Origin: an uncultured Cytophagales bacterium
Lineage (GTDB): Bacteria; Bacteroidota; Bacteroidia; Cytophagales; Bernardetiaceae
DNA: 64,000 nucleotides
Assembly: GCA_963761725.1 (NCBI GenBank)
Contig: CAVXHP010000006.1
Coordinates: 637,534-701,533, forward strand
Direction of reading: 5' to 3'
The translations under genes were made by a program, and so were the position numbers. The notes beneath the pieces are model-generated. The model was not told the origin of the DNA. It searched no databases and was given only the letters and a program-made list of their open reading frames with translations. Shown in pieces: positions 18,210 to 59,898 of this stretch (position 1 is its first letter; every line of letters starts with the position of its first letter).

Positions 18210-18222
18210 TGTAATTGTAGAT

Positions 18223-19503: not shown

Positions 19504-19521
19504 AATAACTATTCTATTTCT

Positions 19522-19635: not shown

Positions 19636-19660
19636 CAGGTGGGATAAAATCTTATAAATC

Positions 19661-25671: not shown

Positions 25672-25929
25672 AAATATATCAGAATTAAAATAAAGTATTT
25701 TTAGTAAAATAATTAAGTGAAAGTAAGCAAAAACTATCGTTTATGGGAATTTTTTAGTTTAATTTATTAAAAATACTTTTCAAAATTGAAAATCCTAAAA
25801 TCTTTTTGTATCTTTTAGTTTATTTATTCTGTGTCGCTCGTAGGGATACAAGCAACGGTAGAGCAAGTTTTTGTTCTAACAAATTATCTTTTTTTAAAAT
25901 AAAACGGTTGTCTGACAATTTTTGTGGAA

Positions 25930-26001
25930 GTCGTTGGTGAGACACCAACAACGGAAAAAAAGAGTCATAAATACCTCGCCATTGTCGGTGTCTCACCGAC
26001 G
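25930..26001. repeat. REP-like palindromic pair (GTCGTTGGTGAGACACCAACAACGG and CGCCATTGTCGGTGTCTCACCGACG)
   Basis: Two hairpins with stems GTTGGTG/CACCAAC and GTCGGTG/CACCGAC. Related copies at 53301-53332 and in the element at 40735-40918. Confidence 0.55.
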
Positions 26002-26019
26002 ATTTTACCATCACCACTT

Positions 26020-35955: not shown

Positions 35956-36693
35956 TCAAAACATTAGTTTTTTCAGGTTTTCCATATATCCTCTACTTAC
36001 TCGCACTACTTCATTATTCTCCATTACTACATCATAACTACTCGTGTATTTATTGACTTCTTTTATAAAATTGATGTTTATTATCGCAGAGCGATGAACA
36101 CGTACAAAAAATTCTGGATTTAGTTTTTGTTCTAATATTCCGATTCCAAAATTGCTTACAAAAATACCATCGTTAGTTATGAGTTTTGCATAATCTCCGT
36201 AGGCTTCAATTCTGATAATTTCTCTGGTAGAAATATTGATTAGTTTCTTATTATGCTGTACCAAAATCCGTTTTGGATATGTATTTTGTTCTAACATCAA
36301 ATTTTCAGTAAGTGGCTGAAGAGCTTTTTGTGGTTCTGAAAAATTGAGCTTTTTCATGGCAGCTTCAAAACGCTTTAAGGTATAAGGTTTCAATAAATAA
36401 TCAATAGCATTTACCTCAAAGGCTTGCATAGCATATTCATCATAAGCCGTAGAAAAAATAATCTTTGGTAGTTCTTCTAAGTGTTGCAATACTTCAAAAC
36501 CAGTAAGTCCAGGCATTTGAATGTCCAAAAAAATTAAATCTGGCTTAAATTCATTAATCACTTTTACAGCATCGACACCATTATTTGCTTCTGCTACTAC
36601 AAAGAAATTTTTATATTTTTCTAAATATTGATTTATCAATTTTCTTCCTGCAGCTTCGTCGTCTATGAGTGCTACTTTTTTTAGTTCTTTCAT
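35956..36693 (-). CDS. LytTR-family response regulator (REC + LytTR DNA-binding domain)
   Basis: REC: VALIDDEAAGRKL...DLIFLDIQMPGLTGFEV. C-terminal LytTR region (ISTREIIRIEAYGDYAKL). Confidence 0.85.
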   Translation of the reverse strand: MKELKKVALIDDEAAGRKLINQYLEKYKNFFVVAEANNGVDAVKVINEFKPDLIFLDIQMPGLTGFEVLQHLEELPKIIFSTAYDEYAMQAFEVNAIDYLLKPYTLKRFEAAMKKLNFSEPQKALQPLTENLMLEQNTYPKRILVQHNKKLINISTREIIRIEAYGDYAKLITNDGIFVSNFGIGILEQKLNPEFFVRVHRSAIININFIKEVNKYTSSYDVVMENNEVVRVSRGYMENLKKLMF

Positions 36694-36726
36694 TTTTTTA
36701 TAAAATCATTTTCCTTCGCAAGATTC

Positions 36727-36807
36727 TATCTTGTGCTTGTAAATTCGCAAGCATATGCTTGCAGAAAAAGAGTGTCCAAGCAATATGCTTGAACAAGAGA
36801 TACATAT
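36727..36807. repeat. REP-like palindromic element between the LytS-like kinase and LytTR regulator genes (GCAAGATTCTATCTTG; GCAAGCATATGCTTGC; CAAGCAATATGCTTG)
   Basis: Perfect 16-bp palindrome GCAAGCATATGCTTGC plus two flanking palindromes. Same family as 32583-32660. Confidence 0.55.
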
Positions 36808-37883
36808 TACAATTCAAATTCAATGATTAATCCTGTTGGATAATTATCATTTACCTTCAAAACAGAATTATACATTTTTTCCAGTCTTAATTTTGTATTT
36901 GCAAGTCCTACTCCTTTTTCCAAAATAGAATCTCTTTCTTCTGTGTCTATTCCTGCTCCTGTATCACTTATTTTGAAGTGTAATTTTTTGTTTTGTTTAT
37001 AAATTTCAATCGTAATTTTTCCACCTTCTATAAGAGGAGAAATTCCATGTTTAACTGCATTTTCTACCAACGGCTGTAAAATCATAGGAGGAATTTTAGA
37101 GTTTAAAATACTTGAATCTACATTTATTTCTACCTCCAAACGTTCTCCGAAACGAGCTTTTTCTAGCTCCAAATAACTTTTTACGAAATCTAATTCTTCT
37201 TTTAATTTTACAAAATCTTGTCTTGATGCTTTGAGTTGATATCTAAAAAGGTCAGAAAGTTCGGCTATTAATTGTCTTGTTTCTTCTTGTTCTGGTGGAA
37301 TGGCTGCATTGATTGTATTAAAGGCATTGTACAAAAAATGAGGATTTAATTGTGCTTTGAGTGCTGAGAGTTCACTTTGCAATGCTGCTTCTTTCAAAAC
37401 TGCTTCTTCTTTAAGCTGTTTTTGAGTTTGAGAATAATAATGATAAGCGTGAAAAATTCCGAATTGTAGGATATAGAAAAGAGCAGGAATATAAATATCC
37501 CAAACTTGTCCATTTCCTTGTAGATGATAAAATCCTATATAATCGCAAATTTGATAATAAAGAAAACGAAAAGTAAAAGCAAAAATAGGTAATGCAATGA
37601 CGTGAACAGATAAGCGAAGCCAAAGAGGATAGTTTTTTAAACCTCTAAAAATAAGCCACCAAATAGGAATAGTAAGAATGAGTTTGATACCATAATTAAG
37701 CAAACCACTATCAAAAAAATCCATTAAGTCAAAAAGATCTTTTAAATCTTGTCGTTCTACTGGACGATTGAGCCACAAAGTAATGTAATAACTATAACCA
37801 GAAGCTATATAAAAGATGAATACAAAAAGTAGCTCATCAATTCTAATTCCTGCTATTTTTTTTGAACGTATTTTTTGTAGCAT
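36807..37883 (-). CDS. LytS/YehU-type sensor histidine kinase (His_kinase PF06580 + HATPase_c), multi-TM N-terminus
   Basis: LNPHFLYNAFNTINAAI signature of LytS-type kinases. HATPase motifs LVENAVKHG, DTGAGI. Confidence 0.85.
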   Translation of the reverse strand: MLQKIRSKKIAGIRIDELLFVFIFYIASGYSYYITLWLNRPVERQDLKDLFDLMDFFDSGLLNYGIKLILTIPIWWLIFRGLKNYPLWLRLSVHVIALPIFAFTFRFLYYQICDYIGFYHLQGNGQVWDIYIPALFYILQFGIFHAYHYYSQTQKQLKEEAVLKEAALQSELSALKAQLNPHFLYNAFNTINAAIPPEQEETRQLIAELSDLFRYQLKASRQDFVKLKEELDFVKSYLELEKARFGERLEVEINVDSSILNSKIPPMILQPLVENAVKHGISPLIEGGKITIEIYKQNKKLHFKISDTGAGIDTEERDSILEKGVGLANTKLRLEKMYNSVLKVNDNYPTGLIIEFEL

Positions 37884-38259: not shown

Positions 38260-40688
38260 ATGAAACTTCTTTTTTCTACTTTCGCACTTTTTATTTTTAC
38301 TTCATTTGCTCCTCTTTTTCCTCTTATTGCTCAAAATTATTCTATTATAGGAATTGCAGAGTCTGAAACAGAAGAGCCTATTTCTTTTGCTGCTGTCGGC
38401 TTAATGAATGCTTCTGATTCTTCTCTTGCAAAAGCTACCGTTGCTGACGAAGAAGGAAAATTTCGTTTAGTAGGAATTCAAAAAGGGAATTATTTCCTAA
38501 CTATTTCAAGTGTTGGATATGATAAATATACTCAAAAAATTACTGTTTCTGCTACTTCAAATCAAACTATTGATTTGGAAAAAATACTTGTAAAATCAAA
38601 TAATGTCTTAGATGCCGTTGAAATAAAAGCTCAAAAACCAATGGTAGAAGTTTTTGCAGACAAAACCGTTTTTAATGTAGAGGGAACAATCGCAGCAACA
38701 GGTTCATCAGCCTTAGATGTAATGAGAAAAGCACCAGGTGTAATGTTAGATAACAATGATAATTTAATGGTAGAAGGAAAGACAGGCGTACAGATTTTTA
38801 TAGATGGAAAACGCTCCATTTTGCAAGGTGAAGCACTTACCAATTATCTCAACACATTACAGTCTTCCGATATTGAAAGCATTGAAATTATTACTCAACC
38901 TTCTTCCAAATACGATGCAGCAGGAAGTGCAGGAATTTTGAATATCAAATTAAAGAAAAACAAGAATTTTGGCACAAATGGAAGTATAGGAGTTGGCTAT
39001 TCAGTTTGGGATAATAATAGAATGAATGGTTCGCTTTCACTCAACAATCGCACAAAAAAGACAAATACTTTTTTGAGTTATAGTAATAGTTTTGGTAAAA
39101 CGGGAAGTTTTATCAATTTATACAGACAACAAAACGAATCTAATTTTTGATGCTAGAACTGATAATGTAAGAGAACAAAATAGCCATAATTTTAGAGCAG
39201 GAACGGATATTTTTGCCAGCAAAAAAAGTACATTCGGAATTTTGATTGATGCTAATTTGAGTGACAATTATGCAGAAACAGACTCTAGAACGCCAATTAT
39301 TAATCAAACTACTAACGAAACGCTACAAGTTTTGAAAGCAGATAATACAGACGACTCTAATTTTTATAATCTTTTGGGAAACCTCAATTATCGTTATGAA
39401 GATACATTGGGACGTTCGTTTAATGTGGATTTTGATTATGGAAAATACAATTCGGATAGACAAAATTACCAGCCTAATCTGTATTTCAATGGAAATGAAG
39501 CTCAAGTTTTGAGTAGTGTAATTTATGAAATGATTACGCCTACTACGATTGATATTCTGACAGGACAAGCAGATTACGAACAAAATTTTTTGAAAGGAAA
39601 ATTAGCTGTGGGAGTAAAAGCATCGCAAGTAAAGACAGATAATAGCTTTTGAATTTTATGATGTTTTGGATGGGAATTCTGTTTTCAATGAAGACAAAAG
39701 CAATCAGTTTTTTTATACTGAAAACATCAATGCAGCGTACTTTAATTACAACAGAAAGTGGAAAAAAATGAATGTTCAGGTAGGTTTGCGTGTAGAAAAC
39801 ACAGTTTCTGATGGAAGACTAGAAAGTACACAGGTAGAAAACAACGAGCGAGTAAAACGAAATTACACAAACCTTTTTCCTTCTGGCGGACTTACTTACA
39901 ATCTAAATCGTCAGAATTCTTTTGCTCTTACATACAGTCGTAGAATTGAGCGACCAAATTATCAAAACCTAAACCCTTTTGAAATGCAGATAGATGAGCT
40001 TAGTATAAGAAAAGGAAATGCCTTTTTGCAGCCTCAATATGTAGATAATATAAAATTTTCGCATACCTATAAATACACGCTCAATACTTCGATTAGTTAT
40101 AGTCATGTTCAAGACTTTTTTGCACAAGTTACGCAAGCACAAGACGAGCGAAGAAGTGTTCTGCAAACTCAAAATGTAGCTAGTCAAGAAGTATATAGTT
40201 TTTCGTTGAGTTATCCTTTTGAGATTACCAAGTGGTGGAATGTTTATGCAAGTATGAATGCGTATCATAGTGTTTATGAAGGAACAACAGAGGCATTTTT
40301 GTCAGTTTCACAAAGTACAGTTACAGGTTATGGACAGAATACATTTTCGCTTCCCAAAGAGTTTAAGTTTGAAGTTTCGGGTTGGGTAAGTTCGCCTTCC
40401 GTTTGGGGTGGAACGTATCTAACAAAAACTTTGGGTTCTCTTAATTTAGCGTTACAGAAGAAGTTTTTAGATGATAAGTTATCACTTCGTTTGTCTCTGA
40501 ATGATGTTTTGTTTACCTCTCCTTGGCGTGGCGATACAGAGTTTGATAATGTAATTATTCGTGGAAATGGTGGTTGGGAAAGCCGTCAGTTTAGAATAAA
40601 TTTGAGTTATAATTTTGGTAGCAAACAAGTAAAGTCAGCTAGGAAACGCAAGACAGCAGCAGAAGATGAGAGTGGAAGGATTGAATAA
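38260..40688 (+). pseudogene. TonB-dependent outer-membrane receptor (carboxypeptidase-regulatory-like N-domain + plug + beta-barrel), split into 3 ORFs (38260-39150, 39092-39652, 39666-40688)
   Basis: N-terminal CarbopepD_reg-like beta-sandwich (IGIAESETEEPISFAAVGL). Plug region (DAVEIKAQKPMVEV...DVMRKAPGV). Beta-barrel-rich C-terminus. Overlapping ORFs in different frames; total ~820 aa. Confidence 0.65.
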
Positions 40689-41065: not shown

Positions 41066-42571
41066 TTACATCGCAATAGCAAAAAATCCTCTTCTACCTG
41101 TTGGATGAAAACCTTCAATCAAAACGCCTCCTGTTTTTCCTTCTAAAAGTCGGATTACATCAGCAGAGTTATCTACTTTTTCTTTGTCTATATGCGTAAT
41201 AATAAATCCTTCAGGAACTTGTGCCTCCTTAAACTTTCCTTTCTCAATACTTGCTATCTTTACACCTGTTGTTCCTATTTTGGTAGCATCTTCTGGAGAA
41301 ATATTCTGGATATCAATTCCTAAAGTCTGAATTTTCATTACTTTCCCAGCTTCATTGGTAACAAGTTCGGTAGTTCCCAAACGATTTTTGAGTTCTACAT
41401 TGGTGTTTCGTTCTTTTCCATTTCTAAGATAAACTACCGCCACCTTATCACCTGGACGTTTTCTTGCAATACGCTCTTGAAGCTGTGCCGAAGTGTTTAC
41501 TTGAACGCCATCTATTTCAATGATTACATCACCTGTTTCTAGACCTGCTTCTATGGCTCCACTTTTTTCGGTTACACCTGCTACATAAATTCCACGTACA
41601 ACAGACAAATTCATTTCCTTGGATAATTCTGCTGTTACATCTCTGATTTGAACTCCCAAAAGACCACGCTGGACAATTCCATGTTCTCTCAAATCGGTTA
41701 CTACTTTTTTCACAATTCCAATCGGAACAGCAAATGAATATCCTGCAAAAGAACCTGTTGTGGAAGCAATAGCTGTATTTATTCCTACTAATTCTCCATT
41801 TACATTTACCAACGCACCACCACTGTTACCAGGATTTACGGCTGCATCAGTTTGTATAAATGCTTCTACTCCCAAACCATCTCTACGACGCAAAATATTT
41901 ATATTTCTAGCCTTTGCACTCACAATTCCTGCCGTTACGGTAGAAGTAAGGTCAAACGGATTTCCGACAGCAAGTACCCACTCACCTACTTGTAAATCAT
42001 CTGAATTTCCAAAAGGAACGGGTTTTAATTCTTCATCAGCATCAATTTTCAGAAGTGCCAAATCTGTACTTGGATCTGTTCCGATAAGCTCTGCCGTATA
42101 ACTTTTTTGATTATTCATTACTACATCAATACGAGTAGCATTTTCCACAACGTGATTATTAGTTACGATATAACCATCTTGCTGAATAATAACTCCCGAA
42201 CCCGAACCCATTCTAACCTCTCCATTATTCTGATTTCTATCTGGCATTTGTCCACCAAAAAAATCTTTAAAAAGATCTTCCATAGATTGTTGCTGACGAT
42301 TACTCATAGCCGAAGGATTTCCAAAGGTCTGAATATGAACAACGGCTGGTGTTGCTCGTTTGGCAGCTTCTACAAAATTCAAATTTTGAGGAGAAAGGTT
42401 TGGACTTGCAGGGTCTGGATTTCCAAAACCTGTTTGTAAAAAAGGTTGATTGACTTGTAAAGCTCCGTTTTGATAAACTGGTGCAAAAAAGTTTAGATAA
42501 ATACCCAAAGCAACTGTTGCACCCACAACACCAGAAAATAAGGCGATAAAAAATAATCCTATTCGTTTCAT
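41066..42571 (-). CDS. htrA: Periplasmic serine endoprotease DegP/HtrA family (trypsin-like domain + 2 PDZ)
   Basis: Catalytic triad context TNNHVV (His), D, GNSGGAL (Ser). Two PDZ-like regions. N-terminal signal/TM. Confidence 0.85.
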   Translation of the reverse strand: MKRIGLFFIALFSGVVGATVALGIYLNFFAPVYQNGALQVNQPFLQTGFGNPDPASPNLSPQNLNFVEAAKRATPAVVHIQTFGNPSAMSNRQQQSMEDLFKDFFGGQMPDRNQNNGEVRMGSGSGVIIQQDGYIVTNNHVVENATRIDVVMNNQKSYTAELIGTDPSTDLALLKIDADEELKPVPFGNSDDLQVGEWVLAVGNPFDLTSTVTAGIVSAKARNINILRRRDGLGVEAFIQTDAAVNPGNSGGALVNVNGELVGINTAIASTTGSFAGYSFAVPIGIVKKVVTDLREHGIVQRGLLGVQIRDVTAELSKEMNLSVVRGIYVAGVTEKSGAIEAGLETGDVIIEIDGVQVNTSAQLQERIARKRPGDKVAVVYLRNGKERNTNVELKNRLGTTELVTNEAGKVMKIQTLGIDIQNISPEDATKIGTTGVKIASIEKGKFKEAQVPEGFIITHIDKEKVDNSADVIRLLEGKTGGVLIEGFHPTGRRGFFAIAM

Positions 42572-42931: not shown

Positions 42932-43084
42932 CTAGCTATTTACAGAACTCTGAACCGTCTTTGTAGTCTGTTTTGCATACGTCGGACAGGTTTTGAAAGA
43001 AGTACAAGAACTAGCCGTAATTATTAAAAGACAACCAATAATTGCCGATGCTCTGCGAAAGTTTTTGATTGAAATATTTTTCAT
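42932..43084 (-). CDS. Putative small secreted/lipoprotein-like peptide (50 aa; MKNISIKNFRRASAIIGCLLIITASSCTSFK...)
   Basis: Own translation of the minus strand in the 930-bp ORF-poor region. Signal-like hydrophobic stretch followed by Cys. Below the 60-aa track threshold. Confidence 0.25.
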   Translation of the reverse strand: MKNISIKNFRRASAIIGCLLIITASSCTSFKTCPTYAKQTTKTVQSSVNS

Positions 43085-43502
43085 AGAAGTAGGATTTGAA
43101 GTATAAAATATCTTTTTTTTGGAGAAATATGAATAGTAGGAATGTAATACTAGAATGAAAACTACTACTGCAAAAGTACAAAATCTAGATCAATTTAGTA
43201 GCACCTATATCAGTACCTAGATTAGCACCTAATTATGTTTAAAGAACGTAATTTTGTGTCAATTGGTATAAAATTAATGCTATATACAAATCAAAGCAAA
43301 TAACTTGCCTTTTTATTGTGTAGCGTGCAACAAATCTACTACTTTACAAATAGTTATAAACTTGTTTTTTCGTTGAGTATTTCAGATTACTTACCGAGCG
43401 TTTTGATTAGATAGCTTCTTTATGGATATAAGTTTGAAAAGTATAAAAAAAAGGTACAACAAAAATCCTATCATTCTATACGCCTATTTAATATTTTGAA
43501 TT

Positions 43503-46500
43503 ATGAAATCCCTATCTTCTAAATTCTTGTCTTCAACCCATTCAATTATTCTACCAAAGCAAATATCTTTATTTTTTGAAGGTATTTTTTCATTATCCTT
43601 TTTTGCTCTTTCTTTTATAGGTTATTTAGCCATTCTGTTAGTTTTCTTTTTTGGAAATACTGTTTCTTTATTTGCTCAAAAAACTAATTCTATACAACTA
43701 CAAGAACAGCAAAATCAACAAACACAGGCAATAATGGGATTGCGTTTTAAGGGGTTTGATTCTGATGATGGATTAGCACAAAATAATGTTACGGCAATTT
43801 TGCAAGATACTCGTGGCTTTGTTTGGATAGGAACAGGTGACGGACTAAGTAAATATGATGGGTATGAATTCAAGAATTATACACACATAGTAGAAGATTC
43901 TTCTTCACTTTCGGCTGGAATGGTAACTGCTCTGCATCAAGATGCACAAGGCATTCTTTGGGTAGGAACTACAAACGGAATCAATAAATATGACTTTACA
44001 AAAGACCGTTTTATACAATATAGACTTAAAGAAAGCAGAATTTCTAATCTAAATACTCGTACAGTAAGAAGTATTTTCCAAGATAGCAATGAAACATTAT
44101 GGATAGGAACAGAAAATGGAATCAAAATCTATGATAAGCTAAATAATAGTATCGAATATTCGCAAGAATATAATGGTCTTTTAGAAGTTCCTGTTTTGGC
44201 TTTGTATGAAGATAATGATAGTACATTTTGGGTAGGAACTGAAAATGGACTTTATAAATTAGATAGACAACGTAGAGCTTTTGTTCCTGTTTTTGTAGAT
44301 GGAACACAACTTACACAGTTTCCTGTCTATACTTTTTTTGAGGACAGACAACAAAATCTTTGGGTAGGAACGCAAGAAGGTGCCTTCAAATTAGATAGAA
44401 AACGAAAAAAAGCAAAAAAATATTCTTCTACCAGTTTCCCAACTACACTTAGTAATGATATTGTCAAGACCATTTCGCAAGACAAAAAGGGAGATATTTG
44501 GATAGGAACCTATGGAGGAGGAATTAATCGTTTGATTACTACCACTGGACAAGTTGCAACTATTCGCCAAAATGAAGCCGAGCAGTATTCCTTAAGTGAT
44601 GATATTGTACAAACTATATATCATGATAGAAGCGGAATTCTTTGGATAGGAACGTATGACGGACTTAATAAATACGATGAGGAAAAAGAAGTTTTTTATA
44701 ATTATCCTATTCCATTACAATACGTAGCTCGTAATCTCCAAAAAGAAGTTTGGGCTGTAGAAGAAGATTATTTAGGAAACACATGGATAGGTACAGAAGA
44801 AGGGCTGTATGTTTATATGCCAAAACCTGAATCTACACAATGGGAACTTACCAAAATCGGAGACAAACTTGGACTCAAGAACAAACATATAGTGAGCCTT
44901 TTAGAAGACAAAAAAGGAACTCTATGGATAGGAACATTACAAGATGGTCTCTACAAGTATAATCTCAAATCATTAGGCGTTGGAGGAAATTCTACTACTG
45001 AAGCTATCCCCTTTGACCTTACCAATCTGGCAAACAAAAAAGCAGAGATAAATCTACAACTTGCTGATAATAGCATCTGGACAATGATGCAAGATACTTA
45101 TAATGATATATGGATAGGTACAAATAATGGACTTTATACCATAAAAGATAAGACCGAAAAAGTCAATAAATATACAGAAAGAGATGGTTCGGGGTTGAGT
45201 GATAATTCTATTTGGGCATTATTACAAGACCGATATGGGGTAGTATGGGTAGGAACAAGCAATGGACTAAACCGTTTTAGAAAACAAAGTCGTGATTTTA
45301 TTACCTATAATCAAGCAAATAATGATTCTGGTGGATTAAGTAATGGCTATATCGTTACTCTTTTTGAAGATGAAACGGGTGTACTTTGGGCAGGAACGCA
45401 TGGAGGAGGTCTTAATCGTTTCCATAAAGAAGCTGATAATTTTACACACTATACCGAAAAAGATGGATTACCTGATGGTGTAATTTATGCCATAGAGCAA
45501 GATAATAGCCGTCATTTATGGATTAGTACCAACAGAGGTTTATCAAGATTTAATATTGATACGCAGGTTTTTAATAATTATGATGTAAATGATGGACTTC
45601 CAAGTAATCGTTTTAATCACAATGCTGTTGAGAAAACTAAAAATGGAGAACTTATATTTGGTACAGTTTACGGAATTACGGTTTTTCATCCAGATAGTAT
45701 AAAGGATAATAATTATATTCCACCTGTTTATCTTACTAATTTGAAAGTATTGGGTAGAGATATTCGTGCAGGCGATGGAACAGGAATATTGACTAGAAAT
45801 ATTGCTCAAACAGATATGATTACGCTTCCTCATGGACAGAATAGTTTTGCTGTAGATTTTGTAGCTCTAAATTACCGCCTTCCCAAAAAGACAGTTTATA
45901 TGTATAAGCTAGAAGGTTTTGATAACGAATGGCATTATACAACGTATAGAAATCATACGGCTTCTTATACTAATTTACCAGAAGGTAGAGAATATATTTT
46001 GAGAGTAAAAGCTGCAAATAGTGATGGCTATTGGAATGAGAGTGGTGCGACATTACGCATTTATATCAATCCTCCTTATTGGGAAGCAATTTGGTTCAGA
46101 ATTGCATTAGCTATGCTTTTGATTGGTGCTGGAGCTTCATTTTGGTTTTGGAGAAATGGCGAAATGCAGAAACAAAAAAACCGCCTTTCGATGGAAGTTC
46201 ATCAACGCACAAATGAATTAGAAGAAGAAAAAGAAAAATTACAGACTGCTTATAATGAAATATCAAACCAAAGTCGTCAGATTTTGGATATGAATGCAGT
46301 CTTGAAACAAAAGCAGACCGAAGTCATGATACAGCGTGATGACCTTTCAAAACAAAGAAATGAAATTGAGAATTCGTATCAAAATGTACGTGTTCTTTCT
46401 GATATTGGTCAGCAAGTAACAGCTACCTTAGATTTTGACCAAATGGTAGGCGTTCTTTATCAGCACGTTAATAGTTTAATGAATGCTCCTGGTTTTGGAA

Positions 46501-47681
46501 TCGGTGTTTTGAACGAAAAAACAAGTTTGATAGAATTTAGAGGTTATTCTGTTGAAGGACAACCACTTAATTATGATTTTAACGCAGCAAGAGATAAGAC
46601 ATTACTTTCTGCTTGGGCAATCCGAAATCAGAAAGAAGTAAAGATAGGAGATTTGCAAAGCGAATATGCAAAATATGTAGCTGGAGAAGTAGTAGCAGTA
46701 GGAACTACAATTCCAAAATCGCTTATTTATTTACCTTTAGCTATCAAAAATCGTCCTGTTGGTGTTCTGACTGTACAATCTTTGGAAAAGGGTGCGTACT
46801 CTGACCGTCATTTGACATTACTAAAAGGTCTTGCTTCTTACGTTTCGATTGCACTAGATAATATTCAAAATTATTCAGAATTAGGACAAGCCAAGAATAC
46901 AATTCAGGAAAGTAGTGTTCGTATTATGGACAGTCTGCGTTATGCTCAAACCATTCAGCAAGCCATTTTGCCTACCGATGATATGCTTCAAAGTAGTTTT
47001 GATGATTCTTTCATGATTTTCAGACCAAAAGATGTAGTTTCTGGAGATTTTTATTGGCTCAGAGAAATAGAAGGACGTACTTTTATTGCTGCTGTTGATT
47101 GTACAGGACACGGAGTTCCAGGAGCTTTTATGTCTATGATTGGAAGTAGATTGCTCAATGAAATTATTAATGAAGCAAATATACTTGAACCTGCCAAAAT
47201 TTTAGATGAATTACATATTCGTTTGAAAAATGCACTAAAGCAAGAAGAATCAAGAAATGACGACGGTATGGATGTTTCTTTGTGTAGAATTGATGCACTA
47301 GAAGAAGATACATTAGAACGAGAAATTGTTTTTGCAGGAGCAAAACGTCATGCAGTTTGGGTAAGTAGAGGAGAATCTCATATTTTGAAAGGAGATAAAA
47401 AGTCTATTGGAGGTTGGAGAAAGAGTAAAAAACGTCCGTTTATACAACTTCAAATGACTGCAAAAAAAGGAGATGCTCTTTATTTATTTACAGATGGGAT
47501 AACAGACCAGAATAATATCGCAGGTGCAAAATACGGCTCAAAACGTTTGCATCAATTATTAAATCAAAGTTCAGATTTTGATATGGGTGAGCAAAAAACT
47601 ATTTTGGAAGAAGATTTAGACCGCCATCAGGGAAATCAAAAGCAAAGAGATGATATTACTCTTATTGGAATCAGACTGTAA
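43503..47681 (+). CDS. Large sensor protein: two-component-regulator beta-propeller repeats + Y_Y_Y domain, TM, coiled coil, GAF, C-terminal PP2C/SpoIIE Ser/Thr phosphatase
   Basis: Multiple Reg_prop repeats (W.GT..GL..YD). Y_Y_Y-like region (YMYKLEGFDNEWHYT...YILRVKAANSDGYWNE). TM after it. GAF. PP2C motifs GDFYWL, VDCTGHGVPGAFMSMIG, DGITDQ. Confidence 0.75.
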   Translation: MKSLSSKFLSSTHSIILPKQISLFFEGIFSLSFFALSFIGYLAILLVFFFGNTVSLFAQKTNSIQLQEQQNQQTQAIMGLRFKGFDSDDGLAQNNVTAILQDTRGFVWIGTGDGLSKYDGYEFKNYTHIVEDSSSLSAGMVTALHQDAQGILWVGTTNGINKYDFTKDRFIQYRLKESRISNLNTRTVRSIFQDSNETLWIGTENGIKIYDKLNNSIEYSQEYNGLLEVPVLALYEDNDSTFWVGTENGLYKLDRQRRAFVPVFVDGTQLTQFPVYTFFEDRQQNLWVGTQEGAFKLDRKRKKAKKYSSTSFPTTLSNDIVKTISQDKKGDIWIGTYGGGINRLITTTGQVATIRQNEAEQYSLSDDIVQTIYHDRSGILWIGTYDGLNKYDEEKEVFYNYPIPLQYVARNLQKEVWAVEEDYLGNTWIGTEEGLYVYMPKPESTQWELTKIGDKLGLKNKHIVSLLEDKKGTLWIGTLQDGLYKYNLKSLGVGGNSTTEAIPFDLTNLANKKAEINLQLADNSIWTMMQDTYNDIWIGTNNGLYTIKDKTEKVNKYTERDGSGLSDNSIWALLQDRYGVVWVGTSNGLNRFRKQSRDFITYNQANNDSGGLSNGYIVTLFEDETGVLWAGTHGGGLNRFHKEADNFTHYTEKDGLPDGVIYAIEQDNSRHLWISTNRGLSRFNIDTQVFNNYDVNDGLPSNRFNHNAVEKTKNGELIFGTVYGITVFHPDSIKDNNYIPPVYLTNLKVLGRDIRAGDGTGILTRNIAQTDMITLPHGQNSFAVDFVALNYRLPKKTVYMYKLEGFDNEWHYTTYRNHTASYTNLPEGREYILRVKAANSDGYWNESGATLRIYINPPYWEAIWFRIALAMLLIGAGASFWFWRNGEMQKQKNRLSMEVHQRTNELEEEKEKLQTAYNEISNQSRQILDMNAVLKQKQTEVMIQRDDLSKQRNEIENSYQNVRVLSDIGQQVTATLDFDQMVGVLYQHVNSLMNAPGFGIGVLNEKTSLIEFRGYSVEGQPLNYDFNAARDKTLLSAWAIRNQKEVKIGDLQSEYAKYVAGEVVAVGTTIPKSLIYLPLAIKNRPVGVLTVQSLEKGAYSDRHLTLLKGLASYVSIALDNIQNYSELGQAKNTIQESSVRIMDSLRYAQTIQQAILPTDDMLQSSFDDSFMIFRPKDVVSGDFYWLREIEGRTFIAAVDCTGHGVPGAFMSMIGSRLLNEIINEANILEPAKILDELHIRLKNALKQEESRNDDGMDVSLCRIDALEEDTLEREIVFAGAKRHAVWVSRGESHILKGDKKSIGGWRKSKKRPFIQLQMTAKKGDALYLFTDGITDQNNIAGAKYGSKRLHQLLNQSSDFDMGEQKTILEEDLDRHQGNQKQRDDITLIGIRL

Positions 47682-47770: not shown

Positions 47771-47795
47771 AATTCGTAATTCGTAATTCGTAATT
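47771..47795. repeat. Heptamer tandem repeat (AATTCGT) x3 abutting the stop of the GNAT gene
   Basis: Same heptamer as 6984-7043. Confidence 0.85.
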
Positions 47796-48280
47796 TAAAC
47801 CTTATAAATCATTTTGTAGTGTTTTATTCCACTTTCATCAAAAATATCTCCATCTTTTTTGAATCCACAACGCTCATATAACGAAACAGCAGTTAATTGG
47901 GCATGTAAATAAATCATCTCTACAGTCTTGAATTCTTCTTTTTTCTGAATTTGTTCTAAAATAAACTCTACCATCTTTTGTCCTGTTTTTTTTCCTCTGT
48001 CTTCTTCCAAGACAGCAAAACGCTCCAATTTTATTCTCTTAGGAGAATTATCTTTATGCTTTTGTGTTATTCTAAAACGAGCCGTTCCGACAGCTTTTCC
48101 GTTGCCATACTTCTCTTCATCAATTGCTAAAATATGAGTAGCTATTTTGTCTAACCCATCCAAATCATCTTCTTCTGGGACATCTTGTCCTTCTATAAAA
48201 ACAATCCTGCGAATAGAAAAAGCACGCTCTAGTTTTTCTGAGTTTTCTGATGGGGTGCCTTCGAAAATCTGAATATTCAT
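47795..48280 (-). CDS. GNAT-family N-acetyltransferase
   Basis: Acetyl-CoA binding motif RFAVLEEDRGKKTGQKMV and the C-terminal YERCGF. Confidence 0.7.
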   Translation of the reverse strand: MNIQIFEGTPSENSEKLERAFSIRRIVFIEGQDVPEEDDLDGLDKIATHILAIDEEKYGNGKAVGTARFRITQKHKDNSPKRIKLERFAVLEEDRGKKTGQKMVEFILEQIQKKEEFKTVEMIYLHAQLTAVSLYERCGFKKDGDIFDESGIKHYKMIYKV

Positions 48281-53444: not shown

Positions 53445-54449
53445 CTAATATTGCTGTAATGTATTCTCCAATTCTGCTTGTATTTGTTTGGCTAATGGAT
53501 TTGGACTAAGCACACGAACCGACGAACCATATCCCAAAATCATCATTTTGAGTTCGTAATTTACAATCAAATGCAAACGAATTCTATATTCATTATCATC
53601 TTCTACCAAAACTTCCTGTGTGTGATGAAGAGGTTGAGATTTGATATACTTTCCTTGAAAAACATCAAAGCTCAAAACTACATCTTCTGGTTTTTGATTC
53701 AGAGCCGAAACACCAATACAGTAATGATAAAATTCTTCTGGATTGAATTTGGCTTGTTCGGGAGTAATGAAAAGGGACTCATCTGATGGTTCTATGTCCA
53801 TTATTCTATCCAAACCAAAGGTTCTGACTTCATTGTATTTTCTTACCCACCCAATTAAATACCACATATTACGGTATTCTTTTAATAGATAAGGATGAAT
53901 ATTGTAAGGTTTTGTATGTGGTTCATTGTGTTTTTGATAGAATATTTTGATTACATTTTGCTCTGAAATATGATAAATCAAATCCTTTAACTGGTGCGTT
54001 CCTTTTCCTTTATAGATCGATTGTTCGACTTGAATAATTCGCTGTACATTTTTTTGGATTTCCGAACTTTTAGCAATTTCCATTCCGTCCAAAACTTTAT
54101 CTACTGCACCAGAAAACTCATTGAAAATAGGTAATTCTCTAAATTCTCCCAAAAGAGATTCTACAAAAGCCATAGCAAGCTGCTCATCATCAGAAAGATT
54201 GACAGACAAAAATTTGTACTTTGCATCTGAATACGAATAGCCTTTCATTTTTTTATTGTAATCAATCGGTGCATCAAATTCATCACGCATAGCAGCCAAA
54301 TCTTTTTCGATGGTAGAAGCTGAAGAAACACCAAAACGCTCTCTACACGCCTCCAACAATTCATCTTTAGTAGGAAAAGGTTTGAATTTGCTGCGTAACA
54401 TTTGATCGATGAGCAAATAGCGAAAAAAAGCGAGTTTGGTAGCTGCCAT
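53445..54449 (-). CDS. WYL-domain transcriptional regulator (N-terminal HTH + WYL domain + C-terminal WCX-like region)
   Basis: N-terminal HTH pattern FFRYLLIDQMLRS...FPTKDELLEACRERFG. Signature WYL motif in NMWYLIGWVRKYNEVRTFGLDRI. Confidence 0.75.
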   Translation of the reverse strand: MAATKLAFFRYLLIDQMLRSKFKPFPTKDELLEACRERFGVSSASTIEKDLAAMRDEFDAPIDYNKKMKGYSYSDAKYKFLSVNLSDDEQLAMAFVESLLGEFRELPIFNEFSGAVDKVLDGMEIAKSSEIQKNVQRIIQVEQSIYKGKGTHQLKDLIYHISEQNVIKIFYQKHNEPHTKPYNIHPYLLKEYRNMWYLIGWVRKYNEVRTFGLDRIMDIEPSDESLFITPEQAKFNPEEFYHYCIGVSALNQKPEDVVLSFDVFQGKYIKSQPLHHTQEVLVEDDNEYRIRLHLIVNYELKMMILGYGSSVRVLSPNPLAKQIQAELENTLQQY

Positions 54450-54454
54450 AAATG

Positions 54455-54532
54455 AATTACGAATTATGAATTATAAAATAATCAGCGTAGCTAATTAAAA
54501 ATTACGGATTACGAAATAATAAGTGTAGCTAA
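54455..54532. promoter_or_regulatory. Two ~35-40 bp direct repeats (AATTACGAATTATGAATTATAAAATAATCAGCGTAGCTAA / AATTACGGATTACGAAATAATAAGTGTAGCTAA) immediately upstream of the WYL regulator gene
   Basis: Direct repeats read from the sequence. They contain TTACGAATT, the reverse complement of the AATTCGT heptamer. Confidence 0.5.
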
Positions 54533-54698
54533 ACGATAGTTTGGTAAAGACAATTAAAGATTATTATTTTCTTTGACTATGAAAGGCAAAACAACTTTTA
54601 TGTCAAATCATATTTCTAACAAAAAACGCATTTTAAAATGGCTTTGCCAAAAAAATAATGAGTTTTTTATTATTTGAAAGATAATGTATGCCTTATCT

Positions 54699-55784
54699 CT
54701 ACAAACTACTTTCTCGTATTTCAATCAATGCTTTTTCCAAATTAGCTACATTTGGAAGCTCTGGCAATGTAGAATTTTGATAAGCTATTTCTAAAAGTTC
54801 AATTTTTTGGTCTGCTTTTTTTAGTAGTTCTTCATACGTAAAAAAACCACTTCTTATTTGTAGTAATTCTTCTCTATTAGGTCTTTTGACAATTACTTCC
54901 TGCTTTTCCAAAATCTCAATTGCCATATCTAAAAGACGAAAAGTGTGCATCATATTTTTGGCATCGTAATTTTTGCCATGTTCAAGTGTGTTTTCATAGC
55001 GTGCCTCATTTCTATTGCTTACCCATTCCCAATACTGTTTGTATTTCTTGCAATGTGCAGCGTAACCTTCTTTATTGAAATATAGATAGGCTACTGCTTT
55101 TTCACCTTTTGGAATATTGCTCAAACTGACTTCATTTGATTCTGTATTTTTCAAAATTCCTTTATAATAAAAATCAACTTCACCTTTTTGATGAAAAAGC
55201 AAATACATATTTTTGACATGATTGACAGCCGAAAGTCCACAATTTTCTTGTTTGTAATTAGTTGATTTTAGCCATTTTTTTAATGAAATACTTGTATTTT
55301 TGTCTTGCTGATTATCCAAAATATAACAAAAATCCAAAACTGTTTTTCGTTTTTCTGGCATTGGATTAAAAATTTTCTTGTTTAATCCTTTTGCTTTTCT
55401 GATTTGTGAAAGTGCATAACCTGCAAAGGTATCTTTACATAATTTGGATAAAATATCTTCTGACTTTATCAAATCCAAAATTGGATTTTTGTAGATAATA
55501 TCTTCTTTTGAAGTATATAAAATCTCAATTATAGACGGATTATTTTTGGCTAATAGCTCTATAAAACGTTTTATTTCATAAAAAACAACATCATTTTTCT
55601 CATCGCTTACTTGTGGAACATATTCCAAACCATAAAACTGTTCTTTAGGTAGAATAAAAATTCCTTTTATATCTGTGTCCGAAGTAGGTAAATCTGTTCC
55701 GTAGGCTTTGCTTCCTGCAAGCGTTTCTAGGAGGATGAGATTTTCTTTTTTTAGGGTTTCTATGTTTATCATAAATTGTAGCAA
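54699..55784 (-). CDS. Pol-beta-superfamily nucleotidyltransferase domain protein (361 aa) with uncharacterised helical C-terminal region
   Basis: Canonical NTase motif hG[GS]x9-13Dh[DE]h in LAGSKAYGTDLPTSDTDIKGIF. No other motif recognised. Confidence 0.6.
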   Translation of the reverse strand: MLQFMINIETLKKENLILLETLAGSKAYGTDLPTSDTDIKGIFILPKEQFYGLEYVPQVSDEKNDVVFYEIKRFIELLAKNNPSIIEILYTSKEDIIYKNPILDLIKSEDILSKLCKDTFAGYALSQIRKAKGLNKKIFNPMPEKRKTVLDFCYILDNQQDKNTSISLKKWLKSTNYKQENCGLSAVNHVKNMYLLFHQKGEVDFYYKGILKNTESNEVSLSNIPKGEKAVAYLYFNKEGYAAHCKKYKQYWEWVSNRNEARYENTLEHGKNYDAKNMMHTFRLLDMAIEILEKQEVIVKRPNREELLQIRSGFFTYEELLKKADQKIELLEIAYQNSTLPELPNVANLEKALIEIRESSL

Positions 55785-59240: not shown

Positions 59241-59436
59241 AATATTTTTTAAAGAATGATTAAACAAATTTATATACTTTATGTTAAGAAAATAGAAGTA
59301 ATACTATTCTTCTGAACCTTCTGATTTTAGACTTTTATCTCTCATTTGCCAATTACCTATCCATTACTATTTTTTTGAATTGATAGAAATTTGTAGCATA
59401 AAAAACTACTTTTTAACCTTTTATTTTTACGACTTT

Positions 59437-59898
59437 ATGCAACAACTTATTTACGAAGATTATGATAAGCCAAATGATGCTTATTATAAGTTATATGTAG
59501 ATACTACTGACAACTATTTTTACATTGATATTGGAGGCGATACGAGTCTAGAATTTGACACAAAGACTCATCTTAGATTTTTGGAAGAAGTTGAGAAATA
59601 CCAGTACAGCAACTTTGTGTTTAATCTTACAAATCAAAAGTCATCTACTGTAAAAGGACGTATCTGGTTTGTGTCTTATGTTATGAAAAAAGGGTATAGA
59701 ATACTTAGAGGCAAAAAAATGAGAGGTGCAGTACTAAGCTCGTCCAATTCCTTACAAAGAGCTGTTATTTCTATCTTGATGAGTTCTGCAACTCGTGTTG
59801 TTCCTAATGCTTATATGAAGTCATTCGATTCTAAGTCATTGGAAGAAGCCATAAATTGGATAAAAGCAGGCAAAGAAGAAACGTTACTAGCAAGCTAA
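59437..59898 (+). CDS. Hypothetical protein
   Basis: ORF only. The ATG at 59437 is preferred over the TTG at 59380. Confidence 0.35.
   Translation: MQQLIYEDYDKPNDAYYKLYVDTTDNYFYIDIGGDTSLEFDTKTHLRFLEEVEKYQYSNFVFNLTNQKSSTVKGRIWFVSYVMKKGYRILRGKKMRGAVLSSSNSLQRAVISILMSSATRVVPNAYMKSFDSKSLEEAINWIKAGKEETLLAS

What the first reader, a model, noticed from the sequence alone, without database searches (positions are those of the whole stretch)
43503..47681. Two large sensors whose output is a PP2C/SpoIIE phosphatase rather than a histidine kinase
The 1392-aa protein combines the Bacteroidota 'two-component regulator propeller' + Y_Y_Y periplasmic sensor (normally the input of hybrid histidine kinases) with a GAF domain and a PP2C phosphatase (GDFYWL...VDCTGHGVPGAFMSMIG...DGITDQ). 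A second protein (3224..5146) is TM-HAMP-PP2C. Together with the PilJ/NarX-like-HAMP-GAF-PAS protein that lacks any output domain (26020..28194), this suggests partner-switching (RsbU/anti-sigma-antagonist-type) signalling with unusual extracytoplasmic inputs. No anti-sigma antagonist or anti-sigma factor is adjacent to either phosphatase.
Basis: partly seen in the sequence, partly recalled or inferred. Interest (0 to 1): 0.5.

Follow-up and report, generated by a model that had tools for sequence, protein, structure and literature searches.

The report
Propeller-sensor PP2C phosphatase, Sia-type switch
The 1392-aa gene is a real, intact membrane sensor that joins a Bacteroides-type periplasmic propeller sensor to a SiaA-type PP2C phosphatase; this fusion is common and already auto-annotated, it most likely drives a Sia-like partner switch, and this genome has lost the neighbouring SiaB-family kinase gene that every sampled relative keeps.

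Summary
ORF 43503..47681(+) encodes signal anchor, Reg_prop propellers, Y_Y_Y, TM, long helix, GAF, helix, PP2C. ORF 3224..5146(-) is TM-HAMP-PP2C. ORF 25924/26020..28194(+) is TM-HAMP-GAF-PAS with no output. All catalytic PP2C residues are invariant, and full-length orthologs in complete Bernardetia genomes rule out a chimera.

Partner switching is supported, but it is the Sia type rather than RsbU/anti-sigma. Both PP2C domains match only P. aeruginosa SiaA among solved structures (E 4e-36; TM 0.89). In every sampled ortholog locus (at least ten genomes) the next gene is a SiaB-family protein kinase. A Chitinophaga propeller-PP2C sits with SiaB plus SiaC, and two Ignavibacteria/Chlorobiaceae ones sit with RsbW-like/STAS genes.

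In this window the kinase gene is cleanly absent, most likely by deletion, yet the sensor is under strong purifying selection (dN/dS about 0.08). No SiaC, STAS or RsbW gene lies in the 64 kb.

The fusion is not unusual. About 100 of the best 120 homologs share it, and JGI and NCBI already name it. I found no experimental study. The verdict is a new member of a known kind, of modest interest. The substrate, output and ligand remain unknown.

The parts
43503..47681 (+). Sensor phosphatase gene, 1392 aa (P0254): signal anchor, 2 propellers, Y_Y_Y, TM, helical stalk, GAF, helical linker, SiaA-type PP2C
   Evidence: ORF; Pfam; orthologs 85-89% identical in Bernardetia genomes; dN/dS 0.08
43563..43649 (+). 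N-terminal hydrophobic signal anchor / TM1 (residues about 21-49)
   Evidence: Kyte-Doolittle scan
43674..46085 (+). Periplasmic sensor (residues about 58-861): Reg_prop beta-propellers plus Y_Y_Y domain (790-855), homologous to Bacteroides HTCS sensor domains
   Evidence: Pfam Reg_prop E 5e-68, Y_Y_Y E 7e-15; PDB 4A2L E 1e-135, 3V9F, 3OTT
46086..46142 (+). TM2 (residues 862-880)
   Evidence: part of the continuous helix 863-974 in the AF2 model
46143..46424 (+). Cytoplasmic helical stalk (residues 881-974), a presumed dimeric coiled coil
   Evidence: AF2 model helix 6-117 of the fragment (= residues 863-974), mean pLDDT 85. Dimerisation is inferred, not shown.
46428..46859 (+). GAF domain (residues 976-1119)
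   Evidence: Pfam GAF_2 E 1e-14; model
46860..46976 (+). Helical linker from GAF into PP2C (the model helix spans residues 1101-1155)
   Evidence: AF2 model helix 244-298 of the fragment; compare the linker mechanism in PMC12143880
46977..47678 (+). SiaA-type PP2C/PPM phosphatase domain with intact catalytic motifs (GD1182, D1199-CTGHG, TD1331G..D1335, D1383-D1384)
   Evidence: PDB phmmer finds only 6K4E, E 4e-36; Foldseek 6K4E TM 0.89, 33% id; invariant columns; NCBIfam SiaA partial match 193.6 bits
47682..47794 (.). 113-bp spacer between the sensor stop and the GNAT gene's 3' end. It is rich in heptamer tandem repeats (TGGAGAA x8, AATTCGT x3.6). In all sampled orthologous loci a 181-aa SiaB-family kinase gene sits here.
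   Evidence: Junction alignment; tandem repeats; relatives
3224..5146 (-). Second sensor phosphatase, 640 aa: TM (34-52), periplasmic region of about 250 aa with no Pfam hit, TM (301-319), HAMP (319-372), SiaA-type PP2C (385-640; nt 3227..3994). Same architecture as P. aeruginosa SiaA.
   Evidence: SiaA model 209 bits over residues 298-640; 48% identical to the other PP2C
25924..28194 (+). TM-HAMP-GAF-PAS protein without an output domain (likely start 26020). It is a conserved stand-alone architecture with no demonstrated link to the phosphatases.
42932..43084 (-). Conserved 50-aa putative lipoprotein ORF between htrA and the sensor gene, divergent from the sensor. Its relation to the system is unknown.

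Best explanation
The 1392-aa protein is a transmembrane sensor phosphatase of the SiaA branch of the bacterial PPM/PP2C (SpoIIE-type) family.

The periplasmic double propeller plus Y_Y_Y module is homologous to the ligand-binding domain of Bacteroides hybrid two-component sensors. It probably binds a periplasmic ligand, most likely an oligosaccharide (inferred). The conformational change would pass through TM2 into a long continuous helix, then the GAF domain, then a second long helix that runs straight into the PP2C domain. This would set phosphatase activity by the dimeric helical-linker mechanism described for other sensor-controlled PPM phosphatases (inferred from the model and from the literature).

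The active phosphatase would remove a phosphate from a small STAS-like switch protein, of SiaC/DUF1987 or STAS type, that is encoded elsewhere. A SiaB-family kinase would re-phosphorylate it. The unphosphorylated switch protein would then bind and control an effector, which is unknown here.

The 640-aa TM-HAMP-PP2C protein is a second input of the same kind, with the canonical SiaA architecture. In this genome the SiaB-family kinase gene that follows the sensor in all sampled relatives is absent. The switch is therefore either served by another kinase or biased towards the dephosphorylated state.

Shown: the domain anatomy, the intact catalytic residues, the SiaA-type affinity, the kinase adjacency in relatives and its absence here, and purifying selection. 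Inferred: the ligand class, the linker mechanism, and the identity of the substrate and output.
For: Anatomy. AF2 model of residues 858-1392 (mean pLDDT 85.3): helix 863-974, GAF, helix 1101-1155, PP2C.

SiaA affinity: the only PDB sequence hit is 6K4E (E 4e-36). The best Foldseek hit is 6K4E (TM 0.89, 33% id), against 14-19% id for RssB, SpoIIE and RsbX. The best NCBIfam model for both phosphatases is SiaA.

Catalytic residues are invariant.

Kinase partner: the gene directly downstream in L001/L008, L009, L004/L005, L006, L092 and L093 is DUF6272 = NCBIfam SiaB_fam_kinase, 138 bits against a cutoff of 85. Consecutive accessions pair the sensor and 'SiaB family protein kinase' in Bernardetia sp. 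MNP-M8, OM2101, ABR2-2B, Wsw4-3y2 and a Flexibacter MAG. This kinase aligns end to end with PDB 6KKO (181 aa), which I take from memory to be P. aeruginosa SiaB although the depositor's label reads 'Putative serine phosphatase' (E 3e-13). The Glu of the IIE-x-x-QN motif is conserved.

A full Sia-type cluster lies next to a distant propeller-PP2C: L042 has SiaB (DUF6272, 148 bits) plus SiaC (PF09345, 150 bits, 'LEYFNTSSSK'). Classical RsbW-like/STAS genes lie next to propeller-PP2Cs in L082 and L060.

Selection: dN/dS is 0.08 overall and 0.03-0.06 in the PP2C domain.

Literature: the SiaABCD mechanism (PMC7647112, PMC7278518, PMC8457831); linker control of PPM phosphatases by GAF, HAMP, PAS or REC domains (PMC12143880); BT4663 scissor-like transmembrane signalling (PMC8534201, citing Lowe et al. 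2012).
Against: No SiaC, STAS, RsbW or SiaB gene was found in the 64-kb window or in any 20-kb Bernardetia neighbourhood examined, so the substrate is not identified.

Both phosphatases score far below the NCBIfam SiaA equivalog cutoff (194 and 209 bits against 700).

No GGDEF (SiaD-like) gene is in the window.

Ten of the 13 distant propeller-PP2C loci, and the 48%-identical homolog (L002), have no partner gene within 4 kb.

The locus has no SusC/SusD-type polysaccharide utilisation genes, so a glycan ligand is only an analogy.

With the adjacent kinase missing, the pathway may not operate here as it does in relatives.
Confidence: 0.6

Rival explanations
1. This is the reader's version: classical RsbU-type partner switching. 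The phosphatases dephosphorylate a STAS anti-sigma antagonist (RsbV/SpoIIAA-like). That protein then sequesters an RsbW-like anti-sigma kinase and releases an alternative sigma factor.
For: The PP2C domains belong to Pfam SpoIIE (PF07228), the family of RsbU and SpoIIE. JGI names homologs 'serine phosphatase RsbU (regulator of sigma subunit)'. Propeller-PP2C genes in L082 and L060 lie next to HATPase_c_2 and STAS genes. A weak SpoIIAA-like hit (PF11964, 18.6 bits, below cutoff) lies in ORF 59380..59898, and STAS-fold proteins recur among non-significant Foldseek hits to it.
Against: No solved RsbU, SpoIIE or RsbX structure is found by sequence, only SiaA. By fold they are far weaker matches (14-19% id against 33%). 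The conserved neighbour in orthologs is a SiaB-family (DUF6272) kinase, not an RsbW-type HATPase_c_2. The PP2C domains of L082, L060, L017 and L019 are only about 19-28% identical to this one. No sigma factor, STAS or RsbW gene is in the window. The 59380 candidate is not significant (E>=0.04 on a model with pLDDT 54).
Confidence: 0.2
2. The pathway is broken in this genome. After the adjacent SiaB-family kinase gene was lost, the sensor phosphatase became an orphan with no working switch, and it is intact only because the loss is recent.
For: The kinase gene is cleanly absent here but present in all sampled orthologous loci. None of the 29 listed SiaB-like cluster members sits on a 739,377-bp contig, which is the window's source contig. 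Several other genes in the window are interrupted: a TonB-type receptor with two frameshifts relative to the intact L006 ortholog, a split AAA_14/DUF4143 ATPase and a split PolX-like gene.
Against: The 4.2-kb ORF is intact in a 31% GC genome and all catalytic residues are kept. Pairwise dN/dS for the window against relatives (0.08) equals that between kinase-bearing relatives (0.079). The second SiaA-type phosphatase is also intact and is 77-85% identical to its orthologs. Other contigs of the source genome could not be examined. More divergent SiaB paralogs would have escaped the word-indexed search.
Confidence: 0.12
3. There is no partner switch. The PP2C domains act as general Ser/Thr phosphatases that oppose Hanks-type kinases or act on other phosphoproteins, and the SiaB-like neighbour in relatives is functionally unrelated.
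For: Most distant propeller-PP2C loci have no partner-switch gene nearby, and no substrate was identified here.
Against: The domain is of the SpoIIE/SiaA type, not the PstP/Stp1 type; PstP and related phosphatases are weak fold matches (12-18% id). The sensor-SiaB gene pair is conserved on the same strand, about 105-120 bp apart, in at least 10 genomes. A Chitinophaga cluster links propeller-PP2C, SiaB and SiaC.
Confidence: 0.05

Closest known systems
P. aeruginosa SiaA (PA0172) of the SiaABCD partner-switch system (SiaA PP2C phosphatase, SiaB kinase, SiaC DUF1987 switch protein, SiaD diguanylate cyclase)
   Same: The PP2C domain is the only solved structure matched by sequence (E 4e-36) and is the best fold match (TM 0.89, 33% id). 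Both are membrane-anchored sensor phosphatases. In orthologs the neighbouring gene is a SiaB-family kinase. The 640-aa protein has the same TM-TM-HAMP-PP2C layout as SiaA.
   Different: The 1392-aa protein replaces SiaA's small periplasmic region plus HAMP with an 800-aa propeller/Y_Y_Y sensor, a long helix and a GAF domain. Both proteins score far below the SiaA equivalog cutoff. No SiaC or SiaD gene is in the locus. In this genome the SiaB gene is missing as well. The organism is a Bacteroidota (Bernardetia), not a pseudomonad.
Bacteroides thetaiotaomicron hybrid two-component sensors (BT4663, PDB 4A2L/4A2M; also 3V9F, 3OTT)
   Same: The periplasmic Reg_prop double propeller plus Y_Y_Y domain is homologous (E 1e-135). 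It is followed by a single TM helix that carries the signal inwards.
   Different: The output is GAF plus PP2C instead of HisKA-HATPase-REC-AraC. No polysaccharide utilisation locus is adjacent. The ligand is unknown.
Sensor-domain-controlled PPM phosphatases of partner-switching systems (B. subtilis RsbU/RsbP, C. difficile RsbZ with GAF domains, HAMP-PPM proteins; PMC12143880)
   Same: An N-terminal sensor module is joined to the PPM domain by a long helix (model). GAF and HAMP are documented input domains for this family.
   Different: The input here is extracytoplasmic and passes through the membrane. The PP2C domain is only 14-19% identical to the solved RsbX, SpoIIE and RssB domains.
Database family 'ligand-binding sensor domain-containing protein / serine phosphatase RsbU' (JGI), also 'two-component regulator propeller domain-containing protein' or 'SpoIIE family protein phosphatase' (NCBI)
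   Same: Identical architecture, with or without GAF or PAS. About 100 of the best 120 homologs carry Reg_prop, Y_Y_Y and SpoIIE. The window protein clusters at 90% identity or more with named Bernardetia proteins.
   Different: None in architecture. These are automatic names with no experimental characterisation that I could find.

Membership tests
PPM/PP2C phosphatase, SpoIIE-type (PF07228), catalytically competent | Pfam SpoIIE match above the gathering cutoff | tested here: met
   71.1 bits and 87.4 bits against a cutoff of 25
PPM/PP2C phosphatase, SpoIIE-type (PF07228), catalytically competent | Metal-binding Asp residues and the D-x-x-GHG motif are kept | tested here: met
   D1182, D1199-C-T-G-H-G, D1331-G, D1335 and D1383-D1384 are invariant in 16 homologs. 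The same motifs are in the 640-aa protein. They align to SiaA 6K4E.
SiaA (NCBIfam NF038263 equivalog) / SiaABCD system | Score at or above the curated equivalog cutoff (700 bits) | tested here: not met
   193.6 bits (residues 1125-1392 only) and 209.4 bits (residues 298-640)
SiaA / SiaABCD system | PP2C domain closest to SiaA among characterised phosphatases | tested here: met
   The only PDB sequence hit is 6K4E, E 4e-36. Foldseek top hit is 6K4E, TM 0.89, 33% id.
SiaA / SiaABCD system | TM-TM-HAMP-PP2C architecture | tested here: inconclusive
   Met by the 640-aa protein. Not met by the 1392-aa protein, which has a propeller/Y_Y_Y sensor and GAF instead.
SiaA / SiaABCD system | Cognate SiaB-family kinase encoded alongside | tested here: not met
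   Absent from the window. Present directly downstream in all sampled orthologous loci.
SiaA / SiaABCD system | SiaC (DUF1987, PF09345) phospho-switch substrate | tested here: not met
   No hit in the window or the Bernardetia loci by tblastn or a 2-sequence HMM. Found next to a Chitinophaga propeller-PP2C. The rest of the genome could not be searched with these tools.
SiaA / SiaABCD system | SiaD-type diguanylate cyclase output | tested here: not met
   No GGDEF domain in any window ORF scanned
RsbU/RsbV/RsbW-type sigma-factor partner switch | STAS antagonist and RsbW-like (HATPase_c_2) kinase in the locus | tested here: not met
   None in the window. There is only a sub-threshold SpoIIAA-like hit at 59380..59898 (18.6 bits against a cutoff of 25).
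RsbU/RsbV/RsbW-type sigma-factor partner switch | Phosphatase acts on a phospho-STAS protein and controls a sigma factor | not testable with these tools
   This needs biochemistry or genetics.
Bacteroides-type hybrid two-component system (HTCS) | Periplasmic Reg_prop plus Y_Y_Y sensor | tested here: met
Bacteroides-type hybrid two-component system (HTCS) | Cytoplasmic HisKA-HATPase-REC-AraC output | tested here: not met
   No such domains. This is not an HTCS.

The most novel reading that the evidence does not exclude
In Bernardetia the conserved two-gene module (propeller/GAF sensor phosphatase plus SiaB-family kinase, with no SiaC or STAS gene nearby) might be a variant partner switch. It would couple a periplasmic, possibly glycan, signal to an output not yet described. 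Either the kinase and phosphatase act on a non-canonical substrate, perhaps the sensor itself, or several SiaA-type sensor phosphatases converge on one distant switch protein. The genome in this window would then be a natural kinase-less variant locked in one signalling state.
Probability: 0.12. Interest if true: 0.55.

Novelty: new member of a known kind. Interest (0 to 1): 0.3.

Why it matters
The finding shows that the large periplasmic propeller sensor best known from Bacteroides polysaccharide-sensing hybrid kinases is also routinely wired to Ser/Thr-phosphatase partner switches, of Sia type here and RsbW/STAS type in other phyla. This is a concrete, widespread example of the proposed modular exchange of sensor domains between kinases, cyclases and PPM phosphatases.

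None of these proteins appears to have been studied experimentally. Bernardetia strains are cultivable and have complete genomes, and a natural kinase-less variant exists, so they could serve as a system for finding out what such switches control in Bacteroidota.

For annotation, 'RsbU, regulator of sigma subunit' is probably a misleading name for this subfamily.

Tried and rejected
1. Apparent PP2C-like DNA fragments upstream of the sensor and near the OMP decarboxylase gene were my own artefact. The BLAST database file held three loci and I had not printed subject ids. Searches show no extra PP2C fragments in the window.

2. I tried to fetch the source contig around the window's own proteins and failed twice ('no gene on record'). 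The rest of the genome could not be searched for partners.

3. The search for SiaC in the window and in the Bernardetia loci found nothing. I used tblastn with the L042 SiaC, a 2-sequence HMM over all ORFs of 50 aa or more, and an N-T-S-S motif scan. The HMM is shallow, so distant SiaC-like proteins could be missed.

4. The ORF at 59380..59898 was tested as a STAS or SiaC candidate. Pfam SpoIIAA-like is below cutoff, there is no NCBIfam hit, no PDB sequence hit, the single-sequence model has pLDDT 54, and Foldseek gives no hit with E<=0.001, only scattered STAS/SiaC matches at E 0.04-0.2. I rejected it as evidence and keep it only as a weak lead.

5. The idea that the HAMP-GAF-PAS protein is a truncated kinase or phosphatase is rejected. 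Many homologs of 640-760 aa end at the same position.

6. Conserved context for the HAMP-PP2C gene: the B. litoralis ortholog has no partner genes nearby.

7. Polarity of the kinase presence or absence: in an NJ tree with the 48% homolog as outgroup, the window nests among kinase-bearing lineages, but deep nodes have under 50% support. Loss is favoured but not proven.

8. Rfam and tRNA scans of the window found nothing.

9. Literature searches for the propeller/Y_Y_Y plus SpoIIE fusion and for partner switching in Bacteroidetes found no specific study.

Full report

Yes. ORF 43503..47681(+) encodes 1392 aa and contains the quoted motifs. Pfam finds nine Reg_prop repeats (E 5e-68), Y_Y_Y at 790-855, GAF_2 at 976-1119 and SpoIIE at 1190-1391. 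A hydropathy scan places hydrophobic segments at about 31-49 and 862-880. So residues about 58-861 are periplasmic and 881-1392 cytoplasmic. The periplasmic part is a clear homolog of solved Bacteroides hybrid two-component sensor domains: 4A2L/4A2M at E 1e-135, 3V9F at 4e-81 and 3OTT at 1e-48.

The second protein is on the minus strand (3224..5146, 640 aa). It reads TM, a periplasmic region of about 250 aa with no family hit, TM, HAMP, PP2C.

The third protein (25924..28194, probable start 26020) is TM-HAMP-GAF-(weak)PAS with no output domain.

**2.

- Catalytic residues. In an alignment of 16 diverse family members, D1182 (GD), D1199-C-T-G-H-G, D1331-G, D1335 and D1383-D1384 are invariant. 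The 640-aa protein has the same motifs, and its PP2C domain is 48% identical to the other.
- Chimera. The window protein is itself in the protein collection (P0254, on a 739,377-bp contig). It clusters at 90% identity or more with full-length orthologs from Bernardetia sp. MNP-M8, OM2101, ABR2-2B, Wsw4-3y2 and a Flexibacter MAG. More distant full-length homologs (31-48% identity) have the same architecture.

The window has 31% GC and comes from a Bernardetia-like member of the Bacteroidota.

**3. How unusual is the architecture?**

It is not unusual. Roughly 100 of the 120 best database hits carry Reg_prop, Y_Y_Y and SpoIIE, with or without GAF or PAS. Eleven of these have a full HisKA-HATPase-REC block placed before the PP2C. 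JGI already names these proteins 'ligand-binding sensor domain-containing protein/serine phosphatase RsbU'. NCBI uses 'SpoIIE family protein phosphatase' or 'two-component regulator propeller domain-containing protein'.

A genome scan found propeller-PP2C genes in Bacteroidota (Chitinophaga, Rikenellaceae, Bacteroidales, Microscilla), Ignavibacteria, Chlorobiaceae, Candidatus Marithrix and an Acidithiobacillales MAG. I found no paper describing the fusion.

**4. What kind of PP2C is it?**

A sequence search of the whole PDB with the PP2C domain returns a single entry, 6K4E, the P. aeruginosa SiaA PP2C domain (E 4e-36). No RsbU, SpoIIE or RsbX entry is returned. The best NCBIfam model for both phosphatases is SiaA, but only as a partial match far below the equivalog cutoff (194 and 209 bits against 700).

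An AlphaFold2 model of residues 858-1392 (mean pLDDT 85.3) has 6K4E as its top Foldseek match (TM 0.89 on the target, 33% identity, E 6e-20). RssB, SpoIIE, RsbX, tPphA and PstP follow at 12-19% identity.

**5. The decisive context evidence.**

In the window the sensor is flanked by an HtrA-type protease (41066..42571, -) and a GNAT acetyltransferase (47795..48280, -), followed by DUF4293 and PorV. The closest relatives keep this synteny. In every one examined, however, a 181-182-aa gene lies on the same strand about 105-120 bp after the sensor:

- L001/L008 (GCA_020630575.1)
- L009 (Bernardetia sp. MNP-M8, CP147012.1)
- L004/L005 and L006 (metagenome-assembled contigs)
- L092 and L093

That gene is Pfam DUF6272. 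It passes the NCBIfam 'SiaB family protein kinase' model (138 bits against a cutoff of 85). It aligns end to end with PDB entry 6KKO (181 aa), which I take from memory to be P. aeruginosa SiaB; the depositor's label in the tool output is 'Putative serine phosphatase'. The match has E 3e-13, and the Glu of the IIE-x-x-QN motif is kept.

Consecutive GenBank accessions pair the sensor with 'SiaB family protein kinase' in five named genomes. Matching contig lengths pair them in three more.

**6. This window lacks the kinase.**

The sensor's stop codon is followed by 113 bp of heptamer tandem repeats (TGGAGAA x8, AATTCGT x3.6). Then comes the 3' end of the GNAT gene. No kinase remnant is present, and tblastn and HMM searches of the whole window find none. 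None of the 29 listed members of the SiaB-like clusters sits on a 739,377-bp contig, so the source contig has no such gene anywhere.

The window keeps repeat-rich spacer of the kind that precedes the kinase start codon in relatives. In an NJ tree rooted with the 48% homolog, the window nests among kinase-bearing lineages, although deep nodes are poorly supported. I therefore favour a lineage-specific deletion but do not regard it as proven. The outgroup locus L002 also lacks the kinase.

The sensor is not decaying. Pairwise dN/dS against three orthologs is 0.08 overall and 0.03-0.06 in the PP2C domain. That equals the value between two kinase-bearing orthologs (0.079).

**7. Wider support for partner switching with this sensor.**

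Of 13 distant propeller-PP2C loci from a genome scan:

- L042 (a Chitinophaga MAG) has, downstream of the phosphatase, a 276-aa ORF with no family hit. After that come a SiaB-like gene (DUF6272, 148 bits) and a SiaC gene (PF09345, 150 bits). The SiaC contains 'LEYFNTSSSK', matching the P. aeruginosa SiaC T68 peptide LLYLNTSSIK (PMC7647112).
- L082 (Ignavibacteria) has a propeller-Y_Y_Y-SpoIIE gene followed by HATPase_c_2 (RsbW-like), STAS and a second PP2C gene.
- L060 (Chlorobiaceae) has a propeller-Y_Y_Y-SpoIIE gene followed by STAS and a second PP2C gene.
- The other ten have no partner gene within 4 kb.

So the propeller sensor feeds both flavours of partner switch. The PP2C domains of L060 and L082 are only about 19-26% identical to the one studied here.

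**8. What was not found.**

No SiaC, STAS, RsbW-like or GGDEF gene lies in the 64-kb window, and none lies in the Bernardetia neighbourhoods retrieved. The only hint is ORF 59380..59898, with a sub-threshold SpoIIAA-like Pfam hit (18.6 bits against a cutoff of 25). Follow-up was inconclusive.

The B. litoralis ortholog of the HAMP-PP2C has no partner nearby. Bernardetia sp. MNP-M8 carries at least four SiaA-type sensor phosphatases in the regions seen: the ortholog, two tandem paralogs and a HAMP-PP2C. Only one SiaB-like kinase family was detected by the word-indexed search. This pattern fits several inputs converging on one switch, but it does not prove that.

**9. Mechanism proposed.**

Shown: the domain order and topology, intact catalytic residues, SiaA-type affinity, and a conserved kinase neighbour in relatives.

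Inferred:

- (a) Ligand binding to the periplasmic propeller/Y_Y_Y dimer, by analogy with BT4663, for which a scissor-like transmembrane movement was proposed (PMC8534201 citing Lowe et al. 2012).
- (b) Transmission through the continuous helix 863-974, the GAF domain and the helix 1101-1155 that enters the PP2C fold. This matches the dimeric helical-linker control described for RsbU and predicted there for GAF-, HAMP-, PAS- and REC-linked PPM phosphatases (PMC12143880).
- (c) Dephosphorylation of a SiaC/STAS-like switch protein that a SiaB-family kinase re-phosphorylates. The unphosphorylated form would act on an effector, as in SiaABCD (PMC7278518, PMC8457831).

In this genome the loss of the adjacent kinase predicts either use of another kinase or a bias towards the dephosphorylated state.

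**10. The third protein.**

Many homologs of 640-760 aa end at the same C-terminal position as the HAMP-GAF-PAS protein. Its lack of an output domain is therefore a conserved feature, not a truncation. Nothing ties it to the phosphatases: it lies 17 kb from one and 21 kb from the other, and it has unrelated neighbours (VWA and OmpA-family genes).

**11. Verdict.**

The partner-switch idea is supported and sharpened to the Sia type. The claim of unusualness is not supported, because the architecture is abundant and already auto-annotated. The 'missing partner' is a peculiarity of this genome.

This is a new, uncharacterised member of a known kind of system. The real open questions are the substrate, the output and the ligand. 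Interest is modest (0.3).

Noticed in passing
window 42932..43084 (-): A conserved 50-aa ORF (MKNISIKNFRRASAIIGCLLIITASSCTSFKTCPTYAKQTTKTVQSSVNS) with a signal peptide and a lipobox-like ITASS|C. It is conserved at protein level in L009, L004, L006 and L092. The block is 81-93% identical at DNA level, against 40-70% in the flanking spacer. It lies upstream of htrA on the same strand and is divergent from the sensor gene. It has no Pfam family.
   Followed up: partly
window 43362..43440: A conserved block (86-93% identity across five genomes) just upstream of the sensor start codon. It contains TTTG, 23 nt, then TAAGTTTG, which resembles the Bacteroidota -33/-7 promoter consensus recalled from memory. 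It is probably the sensor's promoter.
   Followed up: partly
window 38260..40688 (+): A TonB-dependent-receptor-like gene (CarboxypepD_reg, Plug, OMP_b-brl_3) is split into three ORFs by two frameshifts, yet it is 86-92% identical to the intact 805-aa ortholog in L006. This is either a pseudogene or assembly indels. A LytTR-type two-component system lies next to it (35956..37883).
   Followed up: partly
window 23203..24322 (-) and 1398..3185 (-): Two more interrupted genes. An AAA_14/DUF4143 ATPase is split into 264-aa and 102-aa ORFs. A PolX-like gene is split into HHH (2598..3185), a 102-aa ORF (2161..2469) and PHP (1398..2114). Together with the split receptor this suggests either gene decay or an indel-prone assembly.
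   Followed up: no
window 11594..12636 (-): An IS630-type transposase in two ORFs (HTH_23 144 aa plus DDE_3 195 aa), either a frameshifted or a programmed-frameshift IS element.
   Followed up: no
window 15107..23041: Four large ORFs (426, 567 and 426 aa on the plus strand; 1126 aa on the minus strand) with no Pfam hit at E<=0.001.
   Followed up: no
window 59380..59898 (+): An ORF with a sub-threshold SpoIIAA-like (PF11964) hit. The low-confidence model has STAS-like secondary-structure order, and STAS and SiaC structures appear among non-significant fold hits. It is a possible but unproven STAS-fold protein 11.7 kb from the sensor.
   Followed up: yes
window 53445..55784 (-): A WYL-WCX regulator next to an RlaP (RNA repair pathway DNA polymerase beta family) gene. 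The pair is conserved in L006 and L009.
   Followed up: no
L003 5964..13975 (Bernardetia sp. MNP-M8): Two tandem 1324-aa paralogs of the propeller-GAF-PP2C sensor, with a HAMP-SpoIIE gene 8 kb downstream. The sensor-phosphatase family is expanded in Bernardetia.
   Followed up: no
L006 5705..9881: In this relative the orthologous sensor gene is called as two pieces (1319 aa plus a 75-aa SpoIIE fragment). This is a frameshift or an assembly error near the PP2C domain.
   Followed up: no
protein hits P0012, P0016, P0017, P0022 and others: A variant architecture: Reg_prop, Y_Y_Y, HisKA, HATPase, REC, SpoIIE. This is a complete hybrid kinase followed by a PP2C output in one polypeptide of about 1550 aa.
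   Followed up: no
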